Source: Methanobacteriota archaeon
GTDB taxonomy: Archaea > Halobacteriota > Methanosarcinia > Methanosarcinales > Methanogasteraceae
Direction: 5' to 3'
Length of the DNA stretch: 31,790 bases
NCBI GenBank assembly: GCA_034659235.1
Contig: JAYEGV010000103.1
Location: 1-31,790, forward strand
In this document: in pieces, positions 1,135-30,341 of the stretch
How the letters are laid out: each line of letters begins with the position of its first letter
Numbering within the stretch: position 1 is the first letter of the stretch
Translations under genes and position numbers: made by a program
Notes under the pieces: generated by a model
What the model was told of the DNA's origin: nothing
Seen by the model: only the letters and a program-made list of their open reading frames with translations
Database searches by the model: none

Positions 1135-1219
1135 GACGAGATAGCCAAGCCCGGTATGGCGCTGGATTGCTAATCCAGTGGTGCACTGCACCTCGGGGGT
1201 TCAAATCCCCCTCTCGTCG
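1135..1219 (+). tRNA. tRNA-Ser(GCT)
   Basis: Acceptor GACGAGA/TCTCGTC, anticodon stem CTGGA/TCCAG with GCT at 1169-1171, long variable arm, TTCAAAT T-loop, discriminator G. Confidence 0.96.
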
Positions 1220-2570: not shown

Positions 2571-2643
2571 GCCGCTATAACTCAGTTGGTAGAGTGCTTG
2601 GCTGTTAACCAAGATGTCACAGGTTCGAGCCCTGTTGGCGGCG
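2571..2643 (+). tRNA. tRNA-Asn(GTT)
   Basis: Acceptor GCCGCTA/TGGCGGC, anticodon stem CTTGG/CCAAG with GTT at 2604-2606, TTCGAGC T-loop. Confidence 0.96.
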
Positions 2644-2647
2644 CTGC

Positions 2648-2744
2648 GGGCCCATAGCTTAGCCAGGTTAGAGCGCTCGGCTCATAATTCTTCGTTCCAT
2701 AATGGGAAACCGAGCGGTCCTGCGTTCGAATCGCAGTGGGCCCA
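2648..2744 (+). tRNA. tRNA(CAT), probably tRNA-Ile2 (agmatidine-modified), with a 22-nt intron at 2687-2708
   Basis: Acceptor GGGCCCA/TGGGCCC and CAT at 2683-2685. BHB at position 37/38: CTCA (2681-2684) pairs with TGGG (2703-2706), with 3-nt bulges TAA and AAA. The GGGCCC acceptor and discriminator A match archaeal Ile2. Confidence 0.9.
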
Positions 2745-2769
2745 TCTCAAGAAATATAGAGAGACGCGT

Positions 2770-3786
2770 ATGATTCCGGATTTCAGTTTCGCGATCTATC
2801 CTTTCACATCCGAAGCCACTGCGTATGTCAGAGAACTGGAAATCCCCATTCCGGATCTCCTCAGTAAACGTGTATATGATCGCGTCCGCGTCCGCAGCAT
2901 GGAACGGGTGATTCAGGCAGTCGAGGGCAGAATCGAGAAGACTGTCGATACAGAGATTCAGGCAGAGATCGAACTGCTATCATATCCGATCGCCAGAATG
3001 ATCATATCCTGCATCAATGATTCGTATCTGATCCGCAGATATGCTCTTGCAGAGGCAAAAGCAGTCTATGACTCTCTTAAAACCGAACCGCAGGATTTCC
3101 TGATAGCGATGGGAGCTGAGTTCAATATGCATGTTGATGTGTCTGACCATGTATTCAGAATGCATTTTACCGATTATATCAGATACGCCCACCGCATGCA
3201 TGATCCCGGATGGAAACTGGTGAACAGAAGGCTGCATCGCGGCTGGGTTTCACTTTCACAAGATAAGTTTACACGATTATTACAGGAGGCGATCAGCGAT
3301 CGCATACAGCATGATCTGCCGCTTGATATCCCGTCTGAAATCTGCGATGCATTATCAAGATACATCAGTGCTGTGAATGAATCGCTTGGAACGCGAAAAA
3401 CCGAGTTTGATATCAAAGGCGCAGTTTGTACCGAGGCATTTCCGCCGTGCATCGTAGATATGATCGCAAGACTTCAGCAAGGTATCAACCTTCCGCATTC
3501 AGCAAGATTTGCAGTCACCTCGTTTCTGCTGAATATCGGCATGGATGTGAATGGGATTGTTCAAATGTTCGGTGGATCACCGGACTTTGATGAGTCACGA
3601 ACCAGATATCAGGTCGAGCATATCGCAGGACGCGAATACACCGCACCTGGTTGCGATGCGATGAAGACGTACGGGAATTGTACTGGCGCTGATGATCTAT
3701 GCGCAAGGATCAAGCATCCGCTTAACTATTATCGAATCAAAAAGACAGCTGCGGGTTCTGGCTCGAAGAAAAAACATGCTCAATAA
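2770..3786 (+). CDS. priL: DNA primase large subunit PriL
   Basis: LLSYPIAR, RRYALAEAK, FPPC, LPHSARF, RYQVEHIAG, APGCDAMK, HPLNYY (Fe-S CTD). Start moved to ATG 2770 because the tracked 5' extension runs through two tRNAs. Confidence 0.93.
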   Translation: MIPDFSFAIYPFTSEATAYVRELEIPIPDLLSKRVYDRVRVRSMERVIQAVEGRIEKTVDTEIQAEIELLSYPIARMIISCINDSYLIRRYALAEAKAVYDSLKTEPQDFLIAMGAEFNMHVDVSDHVFRMHFTDYIRYAHRMHDPGWKLVNRRLHRGWVSLSQDKFTRLLQEAISDRIQHDLPLDIPSEICDALSRYISAVNESLGTRKTEFDIKGAVCTEAFPPCIVDMIARLQQGINLPHSARFAVTSFLLNIGMDVNGIVQMFGGSPDFDESRTRYQVEHIAGREYTAPGCDAMKTYGNCTGADDLCARIKHPLNYYRIKKTAAGSGSKKKHAQ

Positions 3787-3830: not shown

Positions 3831-3892
3831 AAATCAGTGTAATCTGTGTCTAAAAACTTTATCAGACACAGATTAACACTGATTTCACAGAT
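3831..3892. repeat. Palindromic intergenic repeat (21/22-bp inverted arms)
   Basis: AAATCAGTGTAATCTGTGTCT (3831-3851) pairs with AGACACAGATTAACACTGATTT (3864-3885) with one bulge. CACAGAT-like unit occurs three times. Confidence 0.7.
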
Positions 3893-4215: not shown

Positions 4216-4902
4216 CTACTGCACCACGATCCCATCATCACTGATCCTGTAACTCGCCTTCTCGTGTTTGAGTCCAGCCATTGCCTCAATGGTGAGTTCC
4301 TCGCCATCGAGATGGATGATGTTGTCCGCAGTCGCTTTCAGCATCGTCTCAATCTGCGGCTCGGCTGATCCCTCGGTGTATGTGATGATACCGGTGCCAC
4401 CAGCCATCTTGATCCGCATGGTGTATGACTTGAGTACCCTGATGATCAGGATCGGTGAGTTGAATGCAAAGAGGGTGGTCGATGAATCCAGAACCGACCG
4501 GAATCGCTGTGCCTGCTGATAGACGGATTGCAGTTGCTGGATGAGCTTGCTTGCGATATCGGTTGGATTCTGCGGAAAGGATACCATCATATTCTTGGTC
4601 TCTTTTTGTATCGCGCCAACCGAGCCTGATGCCGTATCGATCACATATAACCTTTTGTTTGAGATGTAATCATGGATGAACCAGTTAAAAGCCATCATCT
4701 GCTGTTCAAGTTGAGATAAATTATAATCCGTCATCAGATACATGCACAGATCCCCTTCTTCTGCGGACTGGCGGAGGAACTGATAGCAGAATATGGATTT
4801 CCCAGTCTTTGGCGGACCATAAACCAGAGTCATCGTATTCTCTGGCAGACCACCTGTCAGATTATCAAAACCCGCAATTCCCGATCTTATTTTTGGAATC
4901 AT
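4216..4902 (-). CDS. KaiC/RAD55-like single-domain ATPase
   Basis: IRSGIAGFDNL, Walker A GPPKTGKS, Walker B region VLDS, ADNIIHL. Confidence 0.85.
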   Translation of the reverse strand: MIPKIRSGIAGFDNLTGGLPENTMTLVYGPPKTGKSIFCYQFLRQSAEEGDLCMYLMTDYNLSQLEQQMMAFNWFIHDYISNKRLYVIDTASGSVGAIQKETKNMMVSFPQNPTDIASKLIQQLQSVYQQAQRFRSVLDSSTTLFAFNSPILIIRVLKSYTMRIKMAGGTGIITYTEGSAEPQIETMLKATADNIIHLDGEELTIEAMAGLKHEKASYRISDDGIVVQ

Positions 4903-6098
4903 ACCCTGTATATGAGGCTGAATAAAATGTCCAGAGCCTCATCAAGTCCCTGTTTGTTTGCTGCCGATACCGGCACGATCGGAACATCCTCCCAGAGTGC
5001 CATCCTCTTCTTGATCTCATCAGGCGACAATGCGTTTGGAAGGTCCTGCTTGTTGGCGATTATTACCTTTGGTATCGCCTCTGTACGGCACATCCGGATC
5101 ATCTCCTTTGCACGCACGAACGTCTCTGGCTTTGTCGAATCGATCACGACAAAAGTACCGATAGCCTCTCTTCCAAGCGGTTCGAGCAGAAGATCGAACC
5201 GTTCCTGACCCGGGGTGCCAAATACGTCAGCTGAGAACCCTTTGTAATCGACATGTCCAATATCGAGCCCGACCGTCGTAGGAAATAGTTCAAAGGTTTG
5301 TCGCTCTACTGAAACAGTATCCGGAGCAATTGCATGGGCGAATGTCGTTTTTCCGGCATTGTACGGACCTGTTACCAGCAGTTTTGGTATAAATACCCTG
5401 ACACCACCAGGTTCCAAAACCTCGAAGAATATCTTGCTTCCGGAAGTCTTTATCCAGTTTGACTTTGTGATTGCAAAGACCTGCCGATAAATTACCTTCT
5501 CCTCGACACTGAAGAGTTTAATTTCGCAGTCAACGATATCAGACAGTCTATCGAGCATCACTTTCTCATAGTTCCATCGTGTGAACATGTATACCATATC
5601 CACATCGTTCGATCGTGCCTCCTTATTCAATCGCTCGATCAGGTCGAATGTCTGATCAACACCGATGGAATCGAGAAGCGTTGCGATATTGTCAATTACA
5701 GCGGTTCCTCCTGCGATATCAGAGATCGCGTTCGTGACTGTCTCCTCACTTTCTGCAAAATCATCGACCACGTACCTGCCGATTGCTGGCATCCCCATCA
5801 TCGGAGATATGGAATCGACAAAGAATGCCTGACCTGAGTCAAGCGGTGATCGCAAATCCCATCCATATCTCTGAAATACGTGTTCGATCTCAACAGGTGT
5901 TCTGGTGTTTGTATAGATGAAGCAAACATCCCTCTCGTTGCGCATGCGCTCGGCAATGATCTGATACCCGAAAACCTCAGACGTGATGCCTGGCATCGAT
6001 GTGAACAATATCGAGGTGCCGGCAGGCATGCCACCACCAAGCAGTTCATCGAGCATAGGAATATAGGTCTTACGCTTGCATTCGGCGTCTTTCACCAT
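4899..6098 (-). CDS. Fusion of a degenerate KaiC/RAD55-like domain with a C-terminal MglA/CvnD-like small GTPase
   Basis: N-terminal IPMLDELLGGG with a degenerate P-loop (SMPGITSE). C-terminal G1 GPYNAGKT, G2 PTTVGLD, G3 FGTPGQERF, G4 NKQD, G5 SAA. ATG 6098 follows the SD GAGGT. Confidence 0.85.
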   Translation of the reverse strand: MVKDAECKRKTYIPMLDELLGGGMPAGTSILFTSMPGITSEVFGYQIIAERMRNERDVCFIYTNTRTPVEIEHVFQRYGWDLRSPLDSGQAFFVDSISPMMGMPAIGRYVVDDFAESEETVTNAISDIAGGTAVIDNIATLLDSIGVDQTFDLIERLNKEARSNDVDMVYMFTRWNYEKVMLDRLSDIVDCEIKLFSVEEKVIYRQVFAITKSNWIKTSGSKIFFEVLEPGGVRVFIPKLLVTGPYNAGKTTFAHAIAPDTVSVERQTFELFPTTVGLDIGHVDYKGFSADVFGTPGQERFDLLLEPLGREAIGTFVVIDSTKPETFVRAKEMIRMCRTEAIPKVIIANKQDLPNALSPDEIKKRMALWEDVPIVPVSAANKQGLDEALDILFSLIYRV

Positions 6099-6099
6099 G

Positions 6100-6477
6100 T
6101 TATACCTCTTCAAGGATCTCCTGCACCTGTTTCGCTCTCGTTTCGATCTCCATCATAATCAGTCCGAGTTGAGCGCCGGATTCTGCCAGTGCGATCAAGA
6201 TTGCCTTTTCACCGGCTGGCTGGAGCAGTATCGTTCCCTGCGCGGTCTTCACATGAATATCACTCACCGCTCCTGTCCCCATCTGTGTACTGGCAGTCTC
6301 AGCGCTTGCCATGATCGTGGAGCAGAGTGCTGCAACGATCCGCTCATTCATCTCTGGCGGCATGCGAGCTGTTATCAGCAGTCCTTCCTTGGAGACGATG
6401 CCAACGGCTTTGATCTGCCCGACTTCTCCGAATCTGGCAAGAATCATGTCCAGTCTTTCTTTCTTGGTTTCAGGCAT
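6100..6477 (-). CDS. Roadblock/LC7 (MglB-like) protein
   Basis: IKAVGIVSKEGLLI, IVAALCSTI, AILIAL, QLGLIMMEI pattern. ATG 6477 follows the SD GGTGAG. Confidence 0.88.
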   Translation of the reverse strand: MPETKKERLDMILARFGEVGQIKAVGIVSKEGLLITARMPPEMNERIVAALCSTIMASAETASTQMGTGAVSDIHVKTAQGTILLQPAGEKAILIALAESGAQLGLIMMEIETRAKQVQEILEEV

Positions 6478-6486
6478 CCGACTCAC

Positions 6487-6612
6487 CTACCCGATCAACT
6501 CAAAGGTCACCACGTAATCCCCGAGTTTCGCGGTTTCATTGGTTATTCTTATCTGGAACCGCTCACCAAAAACCTTTCTGGCTGCGGAGGCTGCATAGAA
6601 GCCTGGTGTCAC
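6487..6612 (-). CDS. Unannotated 41-aa small ORF (MTPGFYAASAARKVFGERFQIRITNETAKLGDYVVTFELIG)
   Basis: GTG start overlaps the upstream TGA (GTGA) and is preceded by AGGTGAG. Its TAG stop sits in the Roadblock SD. It fills the intergenic gap exactly. Confidence 0.5.
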   Translation of the reverse strand: MTPGFYAASAARKVFGERFQIRITNETAKLGDYVVTFELIG

Positions 6613-7049
6613 GATCTCACCTTCTCTGTTATCTCACATTCCTCTCCTGGTTCGAGTTTTGCATAACCCTCTCCTCTGGTGCCCTTCACAGCATCGATTG
6701 CACCCCTGATAATTCCCGGGATCGGGCATACCGTAGTCTCGAAGGCAGCTCCTCCAACCTTCGTCGGACAGATATTACATTTTCTGATCGTAAGCGTAAT
6801 CGAACCATCTCTTTCGGTGATCTCAGGTTCCTCTCCAACTTCGAGTTCGTCTGTGATTATCTCGATCAACTCTTTTACCGGTGTATCCTTATTCACTAGG
6901 CCCTTCTCGAGGAGGAGTTTGCCGATTTCAGCACCGATATATGAGGTGAAGAGATTGGTCTGCTCCTGACTTGACTTTCCGAACAGTTCCCAGATCGCCG
7001 CTCCCAAGCCCATAAATGCGCGATGCGCATACTCGATTTTGTTAGTCAT
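6609..7049 (-). CDS. V4R-like / methanogen output domain-like protein
   Basis: IRKCNICP, VCPIPGIIRGA and ECEI pattern. GGAGG SD upstream. Confidence 0.6.
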   Translation of the reverse strand: MTNKIEYAHRAFMGLGAAIWELFGKSSQEQTNLFTSYIGAEIGKLLLEKGLVNKDTPVKELIEIITDELEVGEEPEITERDGSITLTIRKCNICPTKVGGAAFETTVCPIPGIIRGAIDAVKGTRGEGYAKLEPGEECEITEKVRS

Positions 7050-7137
7050 CTGATATCCTCCTTGTATTTGGTTCGTGATTGGATGGGTGGATACATAAGC
7101 TTTTACAATCCGCGTGCTCCGATCTCGTAATCATCTC

Positions 7138-7686
7138 TCATACCATCAATCTCTGCTCAACCAGCTCTTTCTTTGGTGCGATCACGAATACGCAAGCATC
7201 TGCGCCCTCCGCAATACATTCGGTCTCAACGCATTCTATATCCTCTCTTCCTGTGAGCGCCCTCATAAATCCTGTGAGGATGCCGCATGAGTAATAACAG
7301 GCTTTTGATGTATCGCCATGCTTCTTCCACGCCCAACCCTCAAATGCATCCTTGCACGTAACAACACCTTTTGCATGTTCATAATCGATCTCTTCGACGA
7401 TGAAATCCCCGAACCCTAGCTGCGCATAAGCATCCACACAATCCTTAAAACCCTGCTCTGATTCTGTGATGCTGCCAGACCTGAGTGCTCCCCGAACATA
7501 CGCGATACCGCCTTCGATTGCAGCATTGTAATATACTGTGCCTGCAACCGGACCTATAAGTTGTTCGACTGACTTCCTGATTCCATAAAAACCATGCTCG
7601 ATATCGGTGAGGCATGTCCGTGACCCTTCGACATAGATCCAGCCCCTGCTCCTGAATTCGATAAGCCTGCATGATATAGTCATCAT
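7138..7686 (-). CDS. V4R (4-vinyl reductase) domain protein
   Basis: YAQLGFG, FEG, CYYSCGILTGF and VETECIAEGADACVF are V4R signatures. Confidence 0.88.
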   Translation of the reverse strand: MMTISCRLIEFRSRGWIYVEGSRTCLTDIEHGFYGIRKSVEQLIGPVAGTVYYNAAIEGGIAYVRGALRSGSITESEQGFKDCVDAYAQLGFGDFIVEEIDYEHAKGVVTCKDAFEGWAWKKHGDTSKACYYSCGILTGFMRALTGREDIECVETECIAEGADACVFVIAPKKELVEQRLMV

Positions 7687-7754: not shown

Positions 7755-7797
7755 AAACAAAAAAAACAAAATATGAACGCATCCATCGCGCCCATAT
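7755..7797 (-). terminator. Hairpin plus U-tract terminator (copy 1)
   Basis: Minus strand ATATGGGCGC-GATGGAT-GCGTTCATAT followed by TTTGTTTTTTTTGTTT. Confidence 0.55.
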
Positions 7798-8161
7798 CCA
7801 CAAAGTACCTTTCAGTACTGCGTTAAATTATACTTTGTCTTCATCCGCACGTACGAGCCCCAGTCTGTTATTCTGAGCAGTTCGGTCATCTCTTCCATCA
7901 GCGGTGCCCATGTGTCGTCCCATTCCTCTGCCATGTTCCGCAGCCGCTTAAGATCGCCATCCCAGACCATCGTCTCACGGTTGTCCTGCAGGCAGATGAA
8001 GAGCTTTGCAGCACCTGCTTCGGTCTTGTCGTGCTTGAAATGCTCGATGCAGTGTTTCGTATCCCGGCCTCGTGTTACCATTCGTCGATCACCTCACCTG
8101 TCGTTACTCTTGTGCATATCGAAGCTCGGGTACCTGACATCGTAGCGGTTGATCATGTACT
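7771..8161. repeat. Direct repeat copy 1 (~390 bp), diverged paralog of 9656-10041
   Basis: Collinear with 9656-10041, including the terminator, the 89-aa gene and the 3' end of the 138-aa gene. Carries an extra 5-bp CACCT. Confidence 0.9.
7812..8081 (-). CDS. Hypothetical 89-aa protein (copy 1)
   Basis: 81/89 aa identical to 9698-9967, with additional synonymous changes. SD GAGGTGA. Confidence 0.75.
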   Translation of the reverse strand: MVTRGRDTKHCIEHFKHDKTEAGAAKLFICLQDNRETMVWDGDLKRLRNMAEEWDDTWAPLMEEMTELLRITDWGSYVRMKTKYNLTQY

Positions 8162-8236: not shown

Positions 8237-8503
8237 TCACCGTCTGTAAATCTTATCGTGGTGGTCGTAATCCTCGATTATTACCAGTTTATTATATTCA
8301 TCCACAGAAAATACAAGGACATAGCTTTTGTCTACATGCACTCGTTTCAAGTGCTGTAGCGGACTCCTCAGGTTTTTGTAACGATGTGGGTCACGTCTTA
8401 TTTCTTCGATCTTATTGTGGATTCGTTCCAACTGTTCCCGATTCTTTACTGCAAGTTTGAAAAATATCTTTTCCACGGTCTTTCTCATGGCATAGTCATA
8501 CAT
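8237..8503 (-). CDS. RelE/ParE/StbE-family toxin
   Basis: Basic 88-aa protein with YKNLRSPLQHLKRVHVDKSYVLVFSVDE..VIIEDYDHHDKIY, coupled to the upstream antitoxin. Start at ATG 8503. Confidence 0.85.
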   Translation of the reverse strand: MYDYAMRKTVEKIFFKLAVKNREQLERIHNKIEEIRRDPHRYKNLRSPLQHLKRVHVDKSYVLVFSVDEYNKLVIIEDYDHHDKIYRR

Positions 8504-8738
8504 TCTCTTCCAACCCAAAATGTCTTCTGAAATCCGTAACTTGCACCACCGGTTCTTTCTCCCGCGCTCCCATCTTTTCTATGAACTCCGGCTTAAGCTC
8601 AGGCTCCAGAAACTCATTCTCGTACTTTTGTATTATCCACTTGATCGCCTCTGATTTGTTCTTAAATCCAAACTTGGCTTTTATTATGTTCAGCACCCGA
8701 TTCTCATACTCTGTCAGATTTACCATTGTTTGTACCAT
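8496..8738 (-). CDS. DUF2683-family antitoxin
   Basis: MVQTMVNLTEYENRVLNIIKAKFGFKNKSEAI...LEPELKPEFIEKM. SD GGTGA; overlaps the toxin start. Confidence 0.8.
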   Translation of the reverse strand: MVQTMVNLTEYENRVLNIIKAKFGFKNKSEAIKWIIQKYENEFLEPELKPEFIEKMGAREKEPVVQVTDFRRHFGLEENV

Positions 8739-8767
8739 GTTATCACCCATCATGTTTTGTTATATGT

Positions 8768-9092: not shown

Positions 9093-9545
9093 TCAAGTGA
9101 AGGCGCTCTTAAACCATTCAGTAATGACACCTTCTGAAGCGCTATATCCCCCGTCACGATAAATTGCACCGATCAATGCTTCGAGTGTTTCTGCAAGAAC
9201 GTATGGCTCTTCGTCCGCTTTCTGTTTTCTCTCTCCAACACCCAACTTGATAAACGGTCTGATTCCAAGAGTTTGACCGATCTTTGCAAGCGGGTTTTTA
9301 CTTTCGAGTCCTTCCTTCCTGCGTGTTATCTCATCTCTTGTTTTGCAGCCTGATTTTATTAATAGATCAACCAACACTGCTTTCAATATCGCATCGCCAA
9401 GGGTTCTAAATACTTCTTGATCTTCGCAGTCTTGATTTTGTTGTTTTTGTTCGAGTGCGTAGGCTTTACGTGTCAAAGCGCGATTCAGGAGATCTTTGTC
9501 AGCGAACGAATAACCAACTTTTTTCTCGAGTGTCGTAGTGTCCAT
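9093..9545 (-). CDS. Stand-alone RNase III nuclease-domain protein (no dsRBD)
   Basis: LEKKVGYSF, LLNRALT, QEVFRTLGDAIL, AETLEALIGAIYRDGG. SD GGAGG. Confidence 0.85.
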   Translation of the reverse strand: MDTTTLEKKVGYSFADKDLLNRALTRKAYALEQKQQNQDCEDQEVFRTLGDAILKAVLVDLLIKSGCKTRDEITRRKEGLESKNPLAKIGQTLGIRPFIKLGVGERKQKADEEPYVLAETLEALIGAIYRDGGYSASEGVITEWFKSAFT

Positions 9546-9682: not shown

Positions 9683-10041
9683 CCTTAACGCACAGCTTCA
9701 GTACTGCGTCAGATTATACTTCGTCTTCATCCGCACGTACGAGTCCCAGTCCGTAATTCCAAGTAACTGAGTCATCTCTTCCATCAGCGGTGCCCAAGTG
9801 TCGTCCCATTCCTCTGCCATGTTCCGCAGCCGCCCGAGATCGTCATCCCAGACCATCGTCTCACGGTTGTCCTGCAGGCAGATGAAGAGCTTTGCTGCGC
9901 CGTTTTCGGTCTTGTCGTGCTCGAAATGTTCGATGCAGTGCTTTGTATCCCAGCCTCGTGTTACCATCTTCGATCACCTGTCATTGCTCTTATGCATATC
10001 AAAGCTCGGGTACCTGACATCGTACCGGTTGATCATGTACT
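9656..10041. repeat. Direct repeat copy 2
   Basis: Collinear with 7771-8161. Confidence 0.9.
9698..9967 (-). CDS. Hypothetical 89-aa protein (copy 2)
   Basis: Paralog of 7812-8081. SD AGGTGA. Confidence 0.75.
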   Translation of the reverse strand: MVTRGWDTKHCIEHFEHDKTENGAAKLFICLQDNRETMVWDDDLGRLRNMAEEWDDTWAPLMEEMTQLLGITDWDSYVRMKTKYNLTQY

Positions 10042-29479: not shown

Positions 29480-30025
29480 ATGCACATATTGCATGATCGA
29501 GATGGACGCCCTATGTCCCACATACTACCCACGCGAACAGATGCACCCGAATCAGAAGATTCGAGGAATGTGCTGCATCACAGATACCCGCAACTGCCAA
29601 CATCCAGCATTAATTTATATTTGTTTATTTTAGCATTCCTATTCTCCTTATATGATGCGCTGAGTACCGTTCTATGTATAAACATTCATGGTTATGACAG
29701 TGAGGCAAACATACTCCTCAGATGGATCATGCAGGATTTCGGCGTGGCAGGTTTCGTCGGTGTGAAACTGGGTGTGACCCTGATCGTTCTGGTCGCTGTT
29801 TACTATATTATAACAAATAATATTCATTTTGGACAAAATAATTCAAAAAAATTTTATGGTATCTATCTTGGAGTAATATTGAGTAATGCATACGCAGGCA
29901 CCTCAAATACCGCTGTAGTAATCAAAAACAGCTCTTTTTATTTTTTGAATCTGAATTCCATGCAAATGGTACTGTTGCTGATATTTATACCGCCGATTGT
30001 AGTTTTATTTTTTGATACACGATGA
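29480..30025 (+). CDS. DUF5658-like membrane protein
   Basis: YDALST...GYDSEAN.LLRW...GVKLGV pattern with several TM helices. Start uncertain. Confidence 0.55.
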   Translation: MHILHDRDGRPMSHILPTRTDAPESEDSRNVLHHRYPQLPTSSINLYLFILAFLFSLYDALSTVLCINIHGYDSEANILLRWIMQDFGVAGFVGVKLGVTLIVLVAVYYIITNNIHFGQNNSKKFYGIYLGVILSNAYAGTSNTAVVIKNSSFYFLNLNSMQMVLLLIFIPPIVVLFFDTR

Positions 30026-30341
30026 TGCGGGCACGCCAGTGGTTGCCATCCGCCCGCTATCCAGTGATTCGGAGACTCGCCTCCTCCCCGCTACCCTGCA
30101 AGCGATGATCGTCTGCGGTATTGTCCGCTCCCTTCCGGGCCTAAACCGTTTTCCGCAGCAAAGATTAGCAAACCTGCCCTCCGGCAGACCTAACTATCAA
30201 CGCCATCCCCGCAGGACGGAGATTCATTGTTGGGCATCTGATCTTAAATAGCGTTTGACACGTCTTCCACTGGCTTCGCCCCCCGCATATCGACGGTTTC
30301 GGGTTACAGGTGACGTCGAGTTACCCGGGCTAGCCCGCAAT
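30025..30341 (-). ncRNA. ffs: Archaeal SRP (7S) RNA
   Basis: Minus strand: helix 1 TGCGGGC/GCCCGCA, Alu CTGTAACCCGAAACCG, helix 6 CTGCC-GGAG-GGCAG, helix 8 AGGCCCGGAAGGGAGC. Confidence 0.92.

What the first reader, a model, noticed from the sequence alone, without database searches (positions are those of the whole stretch)
4216..7686. Conservon-like archaeal signalling cassette: V4R, V4R-like, small ORF, Roadblock, KaiC-GTPase fusion, KaiC
Seen: six co-oriented genes, the last five tightly coupled. Known: Roadblock (MglB) proteins act as GAPs for MglA-type GTPases; FGTPGQERF is the G3 form of actinobacterial conservon (CvnD-like) GTPases; V4R domains bind small hydrophobic or aromatic ligands; KaiC-like ATPases have been proposed as archaeal signalling hubs. 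Inference: ligand sensing by V4R is relayed through a GAP/GTPase switch to KaiC-like oligomers. No histidine kinase is present. In a possible alkane or methane oxidiser the ligand could be a hydrocarbon or cofactor.
Basis: partly seen in the sequence, partly recalled or inferred. Interest (0 to 1): 0.65.

Follow-up and report, generated by a model that had tools for sequence, protein, structure and literature searches.

The report
Archaeal Roadblock, KaiC-tethered GTPase, KaiC module
This methane-oxidising archaeon carries a widespread but experimentally unstudied three-gene switch: a Roadblock regulator, a small GTPase fused to a dead KaiC-type domain, and a KaiC-type ATPase. Here the switch has V4R/Bet3-fold accessory genes that are being lost, and the "small ORF" is the stump of one of them.

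Summary
The ORFs and domain calls are real. They are V4R, a V4R/Bet3-fold protein (MJ0207 family), Roadblock, a KaiC-like::small-GTPase fusion and a KaiC-like ATPase. All lie on the minus strand and are tightly packed.

The 41-aa "small ORF" is not a gene. It is the in-frame stump of a ~165-aa third V4R-superfamily gene that is intact in related ANME-2c genomes. A second deletion removed a Cys-rich small gene between V4R and the V4R-like gene.

The conserved unit is the triad Roadblock + (dead KaiC domain::MglA-type GTPase) + KaiC-like partner.
- 67 of 82 fusion genes from 79 genomes have both partners adjacent.
- A tree splits them 100/100 into two paralog clades with opposite gene order.
- This genome has one of each.

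The fused KaiC domain has lost its P-loop Lys and its catalytic Glu. The partner keeps GPPKTGKS. The GTPase motifs are intact.

It is not a conservon: there is no CvnA kinase and no CvnC, and GTPGQ is common to MglA groups 2-5.

Most likely it is a Roadblock-regulated GTP switch mounted on a KaiC-type scaffold, with V4R proteins as lineage-specific inputs or co-regulators. The output is unknown.

This scan has noted the same triad in at least 38 other genomes. I found no experimental study.

The parts
7138..7683 (-). V4R-domain protein (181 aa from the second ATG; an alternative ATG lies at 7686)
   Evidence: PF02830 E 2e-9. Weak match to the MsvR C-terminal V4R part. Relatives are 181 aa. Co-oriented and adjacent to the cassette in 9 ANME-2c loci.
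7050..7137 (-). 88-nt spacer: the scar of a ~238-nt deletion that removed a Cys-rich small gene present in relatives
   Evidence: Relatives, including the 93%-identical ones, have 279-327 nt here (939 nt in L011). That stretch encodes a conserved Cys-rich ORF (L009:4231-4578, L087:668-973; weak DUF3795 match, E 0.008). The junction is spanned by contigs of four runs. A strong SD (GGAGG) precedes the next gene.
6609..7049 (-). V4R/Bet3-fold protein, MJ0207 family (146 aa), four conserved Cys
   Evidence: Precomputed PF27343; a source names it 'methanogen output domain-containing'. Conserved Cys at C91, C94, C108 and C138. AF2 pLDDT 75; Foldseek top hit is Bet3 2j3t_A (TM 0.56), then 7yh2, MopR and PoxR; MJ0207 TM 0.68. 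Atlas feature neighbours are MJ0207, RdxA_C, ATC_hydrolase, TRAPP, V4R and MetOD1.
6487..6612 (-). 41-aa ORF: stump of a deleted third V4R-superfamily gene (pseudogene relic)
   Evidence: It aligns to the C-terminus of 163-184 aa proteins at the same position in L008-L018. The in-frame deletion removed about codons 3-125 and kept the SD and the start; ATG became GTG and a conserved Cys became Tyr. The stump is frameshifted and uncalled in the 93% relatives. The intact gene's model is weak (pLDDT 60); its nearest matches are MJ0312, MJ0758 and TRS31.
6100..6477 (-). Roadblock/LC7 (MglB-like) protein, 125 aa
   Evidence: PF03259 E 4e-17. Weak MglB match. Adjacent to the fusion gene in nearly all loci. 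Relatives start at the ATG.
5391..6098 (-). N-terminal inactivated KaiC-like domain of the fusion protein
   Evidence: PF06745 E 8e-21. Aligned to PH0284 (2dr3): P-loop GGPGTGKT becomes SMPGITSE, and the catalytic Glu pair becomes Asn-Thr. The P-loop Lys is absent in all 10 diverse homologues.
4899..5390 (-). C-terminal MglA-type / Arf-like small GTPase domain of the fusion protein
   Evidence: Arf E 1.5e-13, Ras E 5e-10. Motifs G1 GPYNAGKT, G2 PTT, G3 FGTPGQERF and G4 NKQD are invariant or nearly so. Best solved matches are Arf-like, Arf1 and Sar1. GTPGQ with TT is the MglA group 2-5 signature.
4216..4902 (-). Stand-alone single-domain KaiC-like ATPase (228 aa), P-loop intact
   Evidence: PF06745 E 2e-29. 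Nearest solved structures are PH0284, SSO2452 and KaiC. Walker A GPPKTGKS is nearly universal in type-A partners, and Asp (TDY) stands where RecA has the catalytic Glu. Weak ArlH/FlaH similarity.
7769..7799 (-). Terminator-like hairpin plus T-run ahead of the cassette
   Evidence: Consensus scan; pattern match only.
3840..3875 (-). Terminator-like hairpin about 340 nt after the KaiC gene
   Evidence: Consensus scan; pattern match only.

Best explanation
The cassette is the 'type A' copy of an ancient, widely conserved archaeal three-gene module.

Shown:
- A Roadblock/MglB-like protein comes first, then a small MglA-type (Arf-like) GTPase whose N-terminus is fused to a KaiC/RecA-fold domain. 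That domain has lost its P-loop lysine and catalytic glutamate.
- A stand-alone single-domain KaiC-like protein follows. It keeps a canonical P-loop.
- The three genes are translationally coupled and stay together across many archaeal lineages.

Inferred mechanism:
- The dead KaiC domain acts as an oligomerisation handle. It builds a mixed RecA/KaiC-type ring or filament with the ATP-binding partner.
- This tethers several GTPase domains to an ATP-dependent scaffold.
- The Roadblock dimer sets the GTP/GDP state of those domains, as MglB does for MglA.
- ATP binding, or slow hydrolysis or autophosphorylation of the partner (as in ArlH/KaiC), gates or times the switch.

The output is unknown.

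The V4R and MJ0207-type (V4R/Bet3-fold, Cys-rich) proteins upstream are lineage-specific accessories of the ANME-2c clade. They are probably small-ligand, metal or redox inputs, or co-regulators of the GTPase. In this lineage the accessory part is eroding: one V4R-like gene survives only as a 41-aa stump, and a Cys-rich small gene is gone.
For: - Domain identities.
- Motif states: dead P-loop in every fusion homologue and invariant GTPase motifs; partner P-loop GPPKTGKS in almost all type-A loci.
- Tight coupling: overlaps or gaps of 9 nt or less, each with its own SD.
- Synteny: 67 of 82 fusion genes have a Roadblock and a KaiC-like gene within 150 nt on the same strand. Gene order follows a 100/100-supported split into two paralog clades.
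- Both paralogs are in this genome.
- Full-length architecture is conserved in 52 of 401 sampled genomes of the phylum (22 of 128 genera), and in other phyla.
- V4R-type genes join the module independently in ANME-2c, in a Methanomassiliicoccales chromosome and in two Halobacteriota MAGs.
- Accessory erosion.
Against: - No physical interaction, GAP activity, oligomer or transcript has been shown. No RNA run holding this DNA was listed.
- Roadblock proteins can be GAPs, GEFs or plain scaffolds.
- The partner has Asp rather than Glu at the catalytic position, so ATP hydrolysis is uncertain.
- In type B the partner's P-loop is GPPMSGK[E/D], so ATP use is not a universal feature of the module.
- A few loci lack an adjacent Roadblock (L076, L084, L085).
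- Flanking genes are lineage-specific housekeeping genes and give no clue to the output.
Confidence: 0.6

Rival explanations
1. Proto-TRAPP/Ragulator reading. The V4R/Bet3-fold proteins are not ligand sensors. Together with the Roadblock (longin-like fold) protein they form a platform that acts as the exchange factor or positioning platform for the GTPase. This would parallel eukaryotic TRAPP, where Bet3-family plus longin subunits act as a Rab GEF.
For: - The 146-aa protein's model matches Bet3/TRAPPC3 best among solved structures, and TRAPPC3/6 in AFDB.
- The lost third gene's model also lands on TRS31/TRAPPC3.
- V4R-type genes recur next to Roadblock/GTPase genes in unrelated lineages. One example is a Ras-like GTPase + V4R pair inserted inside a type-A triad (L025).
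- V4R as the ancestor of Bet3 is published (PMC2253512). Asgard TRAPPC3 and Roadblock structures are discussed in PMC10933270.
Against: - Most triads have no V4R gene, so the GTPase cycle does not need one.
- This lineage has deleted two accessory genes and kept the triad.
- TM scores are modest (0.5-0.6), and the same fold serves as a ligand sensor in MopR/PoxR.
- No GEF activity of any prokaryotic V4R protein is known to me.
Confidence: 0.15
2. First reader's linear relay. V4R proteins sense a hydrophobic or aromatic (hydrocarbon or cofactor) ligand. The signal passes through Roadblock (GAP) and the GTPase to KaiC oligomers, as in an actinobacterial conservon without its kinase.
For: - V4R domains bind phenolics in MopR/PoxR, and these structures are among the fold matches.
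- Genes are co-oriented and adjacent in all ANME-2c loci.
- The GTPGQ G3 motif is shared with conservon CvnD.
Against: - CvnA and CvnC are absent, and GTPGQ is not conservon-specific.
- In relatives the V4R gene sits 279-939 nt from the next called gene, so it may be a separate transcript.
- The KaiC domain next to the GTPase is dead, which fits a scaffold better than a downstream 'hub'.
- Conserved Cys clusters point to Zn or redox at least as much as to a hydrocarbon pocket.
- There is no evidence for the direction of signal flow.
Confidence: 0.15
3. The module is not a signalling device. It is a RecA-superfamily assembly or nucleic-acid-handling factor (RadB/KaiC-like) with a GTPase subunit, and the Roadblock protein is merely a structural subunit.
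For: - The partner gives weak RadB and DnaB_C hits.
- Type A here lies next to primase PriL, and this is also so in the 93% relatives.
- Type B lies next to RNase HII in this genome, and next to S19e, PDCD5-like and YhbY genes in other genomes.
Against: - The neighbours differ between lineages. PriL is convergent here and not in the operon.
- The best family matches are KaiC/ArlH-type, not RadA/RadB.
- Pairing of Roadblock with an MglA-type GTPase is the hallmark of a switch.
Confidence: 0.07

Closest known systems
MglA/MglB GTPase-GAP switch (Myxococcus xanthus, Thermus thermophilus); MglA family Groups 2-5, especially the methanogen-specific Group 4 of Wuichet and Sogaard-Andersen 2014 (PMC4316618)
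   Same: A small Ras-superfamily GTPase with G3 GTPGQ (no Asp) and TT in G2, encoded next to a Roadblock/LC7 protein.
   Different: Here the GTPase is the C-terminal half of a 399-aa protein whose N-terminal half is a dead KaiC domain. A KaiC-like ATPase is an obligatory third partner. That paper found no conserved neighbours for Group 4 and studied single-domain proteins. By plain sequence the domain is nearer to Arf/Sar than to solved MglA.
Actinobacterial conservon (CvnA-CvnB-CvnC-CvnD)
   Same: A Roadblock (CvnB) plus a GTPGQ-type GTPase (CvnD) in one operon.
   Different: There is no CvnA sensor kinase and no CvnC (DUF742). The module is archaeal, and KaiC-type components have no counterpart in conservons.
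Archaeal single-domain KaiC-like ATPases (ArlH/FlaH; PH0284, SSO2452) and the KaiC-centred signalling networks proposed by Makarova, Galperin and Koonin 2017 (mBio; not held in the library, cited from PMC5847659 and PMC6393860)
   Same: One-domain KaiC/RecA fold. One active-looking and one inactivated ('iKaiC') version. Embedded among sensor-type domains.
   Different: Fusion of iKaiC to a small GTPase and obligate pairing with Roadblock. I could not check whether that paper lists this architecture.
V4R / Bet3 (TRAPPC3) / MetOD1 / MJ0207 superfamily (Podar et al. 2008, PMC2253512; Galperin et al. 2018, PMC5847659; Tran et al. 2024, PMC10933270)
   Same: The fold and the conserved Cys cluster. 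Stand-alone ~150-180 aa proteins.
   Different: Here they sit in an operon-like array directly upstream of a Roadblock/GTPase module. Tran et al. note that in the Asgard archaeon MK-D1 GTPase genes are generally not in operons with Roadblock, longin or TRAPPC3 genes.

Membership tests
Conservon (Cvn) | CvnA membrane sensor histidine kinase in the operon | tested here: not met
   No HATPase_c or HisKA in any cassette gene or its immediate neighbours.
Conservon (Cvn) | CvnC (DUF742) protein between Roadblock and GTPase | tested here: not met
   No DUF742 hit. Roadblock is followed after 1 nt by the fusion gene.
Conservon (Cvn) | CvnB Roadblock plus CvnD GTPase with GTPGQ | tested here: met
   This feature is shared by all MglA groups 2-5.
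MglA family (Groups 2-5) | G3 GTPGQ lacking the canonical Asp; Thr-Thr in G2 instead of an Arg finger | tested here: met
   FGTPGQERF and PTT are invariant in 10 diverse homologues. The criterion comes from PMC4316618.
MglA family (Groups 2-5) | Coupled MglB/Roadblock gene | tested here: met
   Adjacent in the window and in nearly all related loci.
MglA family (Groups 2-5) | Phylogenetic placement inside archaeal Group 4 | not tested
   No reference Group 4 sequences were at hand. The nearest solved structures by sequence are Arf-like, Arf and Sar1.
MglA family (Groups 2-5) | Single-domain small GTPase | tested here: not met
   399-aa two-domain protein, conserved full-length.
MglB-type GAP | Stimulates GTP hydrolysis of its partner | not testable with these tools
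   Only fold and family membership are available (PF03259). The NCBIfam MglB match is far below its cut-off.
KaiC-type ATPase (active) | Walker A GxxxxGK[ST] and a catalytic acidic residue | tested here: not met
   Fusion N-domain: SMPGITSE in place of GGPGTGKT, and Asn-Thr in place of Glu-Glu.
KaiC-type ATPase (active) | Walker A GxxxxGK[ST] and a catalytic acidic residue (stand-alone partner, 4216-4902) | tested here: inconclusive
   Walker A GPPKTGKS is intact. Asp, not Glu, aligns with RecA's catalytic Glu.
Cyanobacterial clock KaiC | Two tandem KaiC domains with KaiA/KaiB partners | tested here: not met
   Only single domains are present, and there is no KaiB-like gene in the cassette.
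V4R domain (PF02830) | Match above the Pfam gathering score | tested here: met
   The 182-aa protein scores 37.6 bits against a cut-off of 31.
V4R/Bet3 superfamily (146-aa protein) | Alpha/beta two-layer fold with a Cys cluster | tested here: met
   AF2 pLDDT 75. Bet3 TM 0.56 with probability 1.0; MJ0207 TM 0.68. Four conserved Cys. The hhalign comparison to V4R on shallow alignments was not significant.
TRAPP-like GEF platform | Bet3-family subunits plus longin subunits with GEF activity on a GTPase | not testable with these tools
   Fold resemblance and gene adjacency only.

The most novel reading that the evidence does not exclude
In non-Asgard archaea, V4R/Bet3-fold proteins and a Roadblock protein assemble on a KaiC-type ring that carries Arf/MglA-like GTPase domains. 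This would form a prokaryotic counterpart of the eukaryotic TRAPP/Ragulator-type GTPase-regulating platforms, with ATP-dependent (KaiC-like) timing of a GTP switch.
Probability: 0.12. Interest if true: 0.8.

Novelty: new variant of a known kind. Interest (0 to 1): 0.5.

Why it matters
Small GTPases paired with Roadblock regulators are the root of eukaryotic Ras/Arf/Rag signalling, yet almost nothing is known about what they do in archaea. This module is conserved from methanogens and methane oxidisers to Thermoproteota. It joins a GTP switch to the KaiC family, which has been proposed as the main archaeal signalling hub. It also occurs in cultivable Methanothermobacter and Methanobacterium, so it can be tested at the bench. 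The ANME-2c version adds V4R/Bet3-fold proteins. That is the same fold pairing (Bet3 plus longin/Roadblock) that eukaryotes use to regulate Rab GTPases. The local erosion of the accessory genes shows which parts are dispensable.

Tried and rejected
- Reading Makarova et al. 2017 (mBio), the most relevant paper: it is not held, by DOI or by PMC id. I cannot say whether the fusion is listed there.
- Literature searches for KaiC + Roadblock/LC7 + GTPase found no description of the triad.
- hhalign between the shallow V4R, V4R-like and third-gene alignments gave no significant probabilities. The fold assignment therefore rests on the structure models and atlas neighbours.
- The word-based search with the V4R protein reached only close relatives.
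- A genome-wide V4R versus fusion co-localisation test failed because the match list was truncated.
- No RNA run holding this DNA was listed, so co-transcription stays untested.
- The sigma-70-type promoter scan is not meaningful for an archaeon.
- Rfam found no RNA family inside the cassette.
- The idea that the 41-aa ORF is a conserved micro-protein was rejected. It is frameshifted in the sister lineage and has lost a conserved Cys.


Full report
**What is there**

Region 4216-7686 carries six minus-strand ORFs. Pfam and NCBIfam give:
- V4R for 7138-7686.
- Nothing for 6609-7049 or 6487-6612.
- Roadblock/LC7 for 6100-6486.
- KaiC plus Arf/Ras-type GTPase for 4899-6113.
- KaiC for 4216-4902.

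With the start codons that relatives use (Roadblock ATG at 6477, fusion ATG at 6098), the genes are packed as follows: 88 nt, 4-nt overlap, 9 nt, 1 nt, 4-nt overlap. Each downstream gene has its own Shine-Dalgarno sequence. Terminator-like hairpins on the same strand lie just upstream of V4R and about 340 nt after the last gene. These are pattern matches only.

The neighbours are unrelated:
- Upstream: an 89-aa unknown gene, a ParE-like/DUF2683 pair and an RNase III-like gene.
- Downstream: a convergent primase PriL gene and a beta-CASP nuclease gene.

The nearest homologues are named Candidatus Methanogaster / ANME-2c. The DNA comes from a brine metagenome.

**The small ORF is a gene stump**

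In ten related ANME-2c loci, the position between the V4R-like gene and Roadblock holds a 163-184 aa gene.
- The window's 41-aa ORF matches only that gene's last ~39 residues.
- The DNA alignment shows an in-frame deletion from about codon 3 to codon 125. It kept the ribosome-binding site and the start codon (now GTG, overlapping the upstream stop as GTGA).
- A conserved Cys has become Tyr.

The closest relatives (93% identical fusion protein, from other samples) share the deletion. Their stump differs by +1 and +4 nt, ends early, and is not called as a gene. It is therefore a decaying relic.

The lost gene belongs to the same superfamily as the 146-aa gene. Its atlas neighbours are ATC_hydrolase, RdxA_C, MJ0207 and TRAPP. 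Its low-confidence model is nearest to MJ0312, MJ0758 and TRS31.

A second deletion is specific to the window's lineage. The V4R to V4R-like spacer is 88 nt here but 279-327 nt in most relatives (939 nt in L011). The missing ~238 nt encode, in relatives, a conserved Cys-rich small ORF with a weak DUF3795 match.

Per-run contigs of four runs span both junctions without gaps. These runs are from one study and are possibly the source.

**The V4R-like protein**

The 146-aa protein is PF27343 (MJ0207 family) in precomputed annotation. One source calls it methanogen-output-domain-containing. It has four conserved Cys. Its AF2 model (pLDDT 75) matches, in order:
- TRAPP Bet3 (TM 0.56).
- Thorarchaeota TRAPPC3.
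- BcsD.
- The MopR/PoxR phenol sensors.
- MJ0207 in AFDB (TM 0.68).

It is thus a V4R/Bet3-superfamily protein. MetOD1, a related domain, is described as similar to V4R, H-NOX and ATC hydrolase (PMC5847659).

**The conserved core**

The fusion protein has over a thousand relatives of the same length and architecture. At least 569 stretches in species-representative genomes encode a relative.

I annotated 79 fetched loci plus the window and a second locus of this genome, using profiles built from the window's proteins.
- Of 82 fusion genes, 67 have both a Roadblock and a KaiC-like gene within 150 nt on the same strand.
- Most of the rest are cut by contig ends or by my ORF-start rule.
- A few appear to lack an adjacent Roadblock (L076, L084, L085).

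A maximum-likelihood tree splits the fusion proteins with 100/100 support into two clades that coincide with gene order:
- Clade A (40 rows, including the window): Roadblock, then fusion, then one or two KaiC-like genes. It includes ANME-2c/2a, Methanobacteriaceae, a Methanomicrobiales MAG and Methanomassiliicoccales.
- Clade B (42 rows): KaiC-like (DUF7504), then fusion, then Roadblock. It includes Methanoperedens, Methanocellales, ANME-2, Hydrothermarchaeota, Thermoproteota/Nitrososphaerota and a Woesearchaeota MAG.

This genome has both. The clade-B copy lies on another contig next to RNase HII.

In a sample of 401 genomes of the phylum, 52 (22 of 128 genera) have a full-length match. One 55-genome family of the same order has none. 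Flanking genes beyond the triad are lineage-specific.

**State of the active sites**

- In all ten diverse fusion proteins aligned, the GTPase motifs are intact and nearly invariant: GPYNAGKT, PTT, FGTPGQERF, NKQD. The N-terminal KaiC-like domain lacks the P-loop Lys.
- Against PH0284, its P-loop reads SMPGITSE instead of GGPGTGKT. The catalytic Glu pair is Asn-Thr.
- The type-A partner keeps GPPKTGKS almost everywhere. It has Asp (TDY) where RecA has the catalytic Glu.
- Type-B partners have GPPMSGK followed by Glu or Asp.
- The partner weakly resembles ArlH/FlaH.

**Comparison with the known**

The G3 form GTPGQ and the TT in G2 are the published signature of MglA groups 2-5. Group 4 is almost exclusive to methanogens, and no conserved neighbours were reported for it (PMC4316618). 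The conservon is Group 2 and is defined by CvnA and CvnC as well, and both are absent here. By plain sequence the domain is nearest to Arf-like, Arf and Sar1 structures. The cassette therefore works like an MglA/MglB pair but is not a conservon. It differs from every described MglA system in the KaiC fusion and the KaiC partner.

**The V4R link**

V4R-type genes are not part of the core, but they recur beside it:
- Throughout the ANME-2c clade.
- In a Methanomassiliicoccales chromosome, where a Ras-like GTPase and a V4R gene sit between Roadblock and the fusion gene.
- In two Halobacteriota MAGs with several V4R and Roadblock genes and two fusion genes.

Two readings fit. The V4R proteins could be small-ligand, metal or redox sensors, as in MopR/PoxR. 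Alternatively, they could be Bet3-like subunits of a GTPase-regulating platform. Neither reading is tested.

**Earlier notes of this scan**

The same triad has been noted 44 times in at least 38 other genomes. The V4R/Roadblock/GTPase theme has been noted many times as well. Those notes agree with the core reading. I checked the points I reuse on my own loci. One note describes the second KaiC-like protein as inactivated. That holds for type B but not for the type-A partner here.

**Verdict**

This is a real, conserved and experimentally unstudied module. The conservon label and the small ORF are not. The mechanism given is inference from anatomy and from the MglA/MglB and ArlH/KaiC precedents.

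Noticed in passing
L007 (own genome, contig C149) 1470-3719, minus strand: A second, paralogous triad in the same genome with the opposite gene order: DUF7504 KaiC-like (235 aa), fusion (392 aa, 41% identical), Roadblock (120 aa). It lies next to RNase HII.
   Followed up: yes
L009:4231-4578; L087:668-973: Relatives carry a conserved Cys-rich small ORF between V4R and the V4R-like gene. It gives a weak DUF3795 match and gene callers did not call it. It is deleted in the window.
   Followed up: partly
L025:4477-7173 (Methanomassiliicoccales chromosome CP070739.1): A type-A triad with a stand-alone Ras-like GTPase (183 aa, PF00071 E 9e-40) and a V4R protein inserted between Roadblock and the fusion gene.
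   Followed up: partly
L063:997-11615 and L073 (Halobacteriota MAGs from a tar biofilm): A super-cluster: a type-B triad, three V4R genes, two Roadblock genes, a second fusion gene, two UbiA prenyltransferases, a FilR1-like protein, then Roadblock and two more V4R genes.
   Followed up: partly
window 2571-2643 and 2648-2744 (+), 1135-1219 (+): Three tRNA genes. Two of them overlap the 5' part of the longest ORF 2614-3786, so the real PriL start must lie further downstream (relatives: 336 aa).
   Followed up: no
window 30025-30340 (-): Archaeal SRP RNA (Rfam RF01857, 204 bits).
   Followed up: no
window 7812-8081 and 9698-9967 (-): Two copies of an 89-aa protein with no Pfam family. They bracket a ParE-like/DUF2683 pair (8237-8753) and an RNase III-like gene (9093-9545).
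   Followed up: no
L028-L046 (Methanobacteriaceae loci): Type-A triads there have two tandem P-loop-intact KaiC-like partners and often a third, P-loop-less KaiC-like gene upstream. A TPR protein follows downstream in 16 loci.
   Followed up: partly
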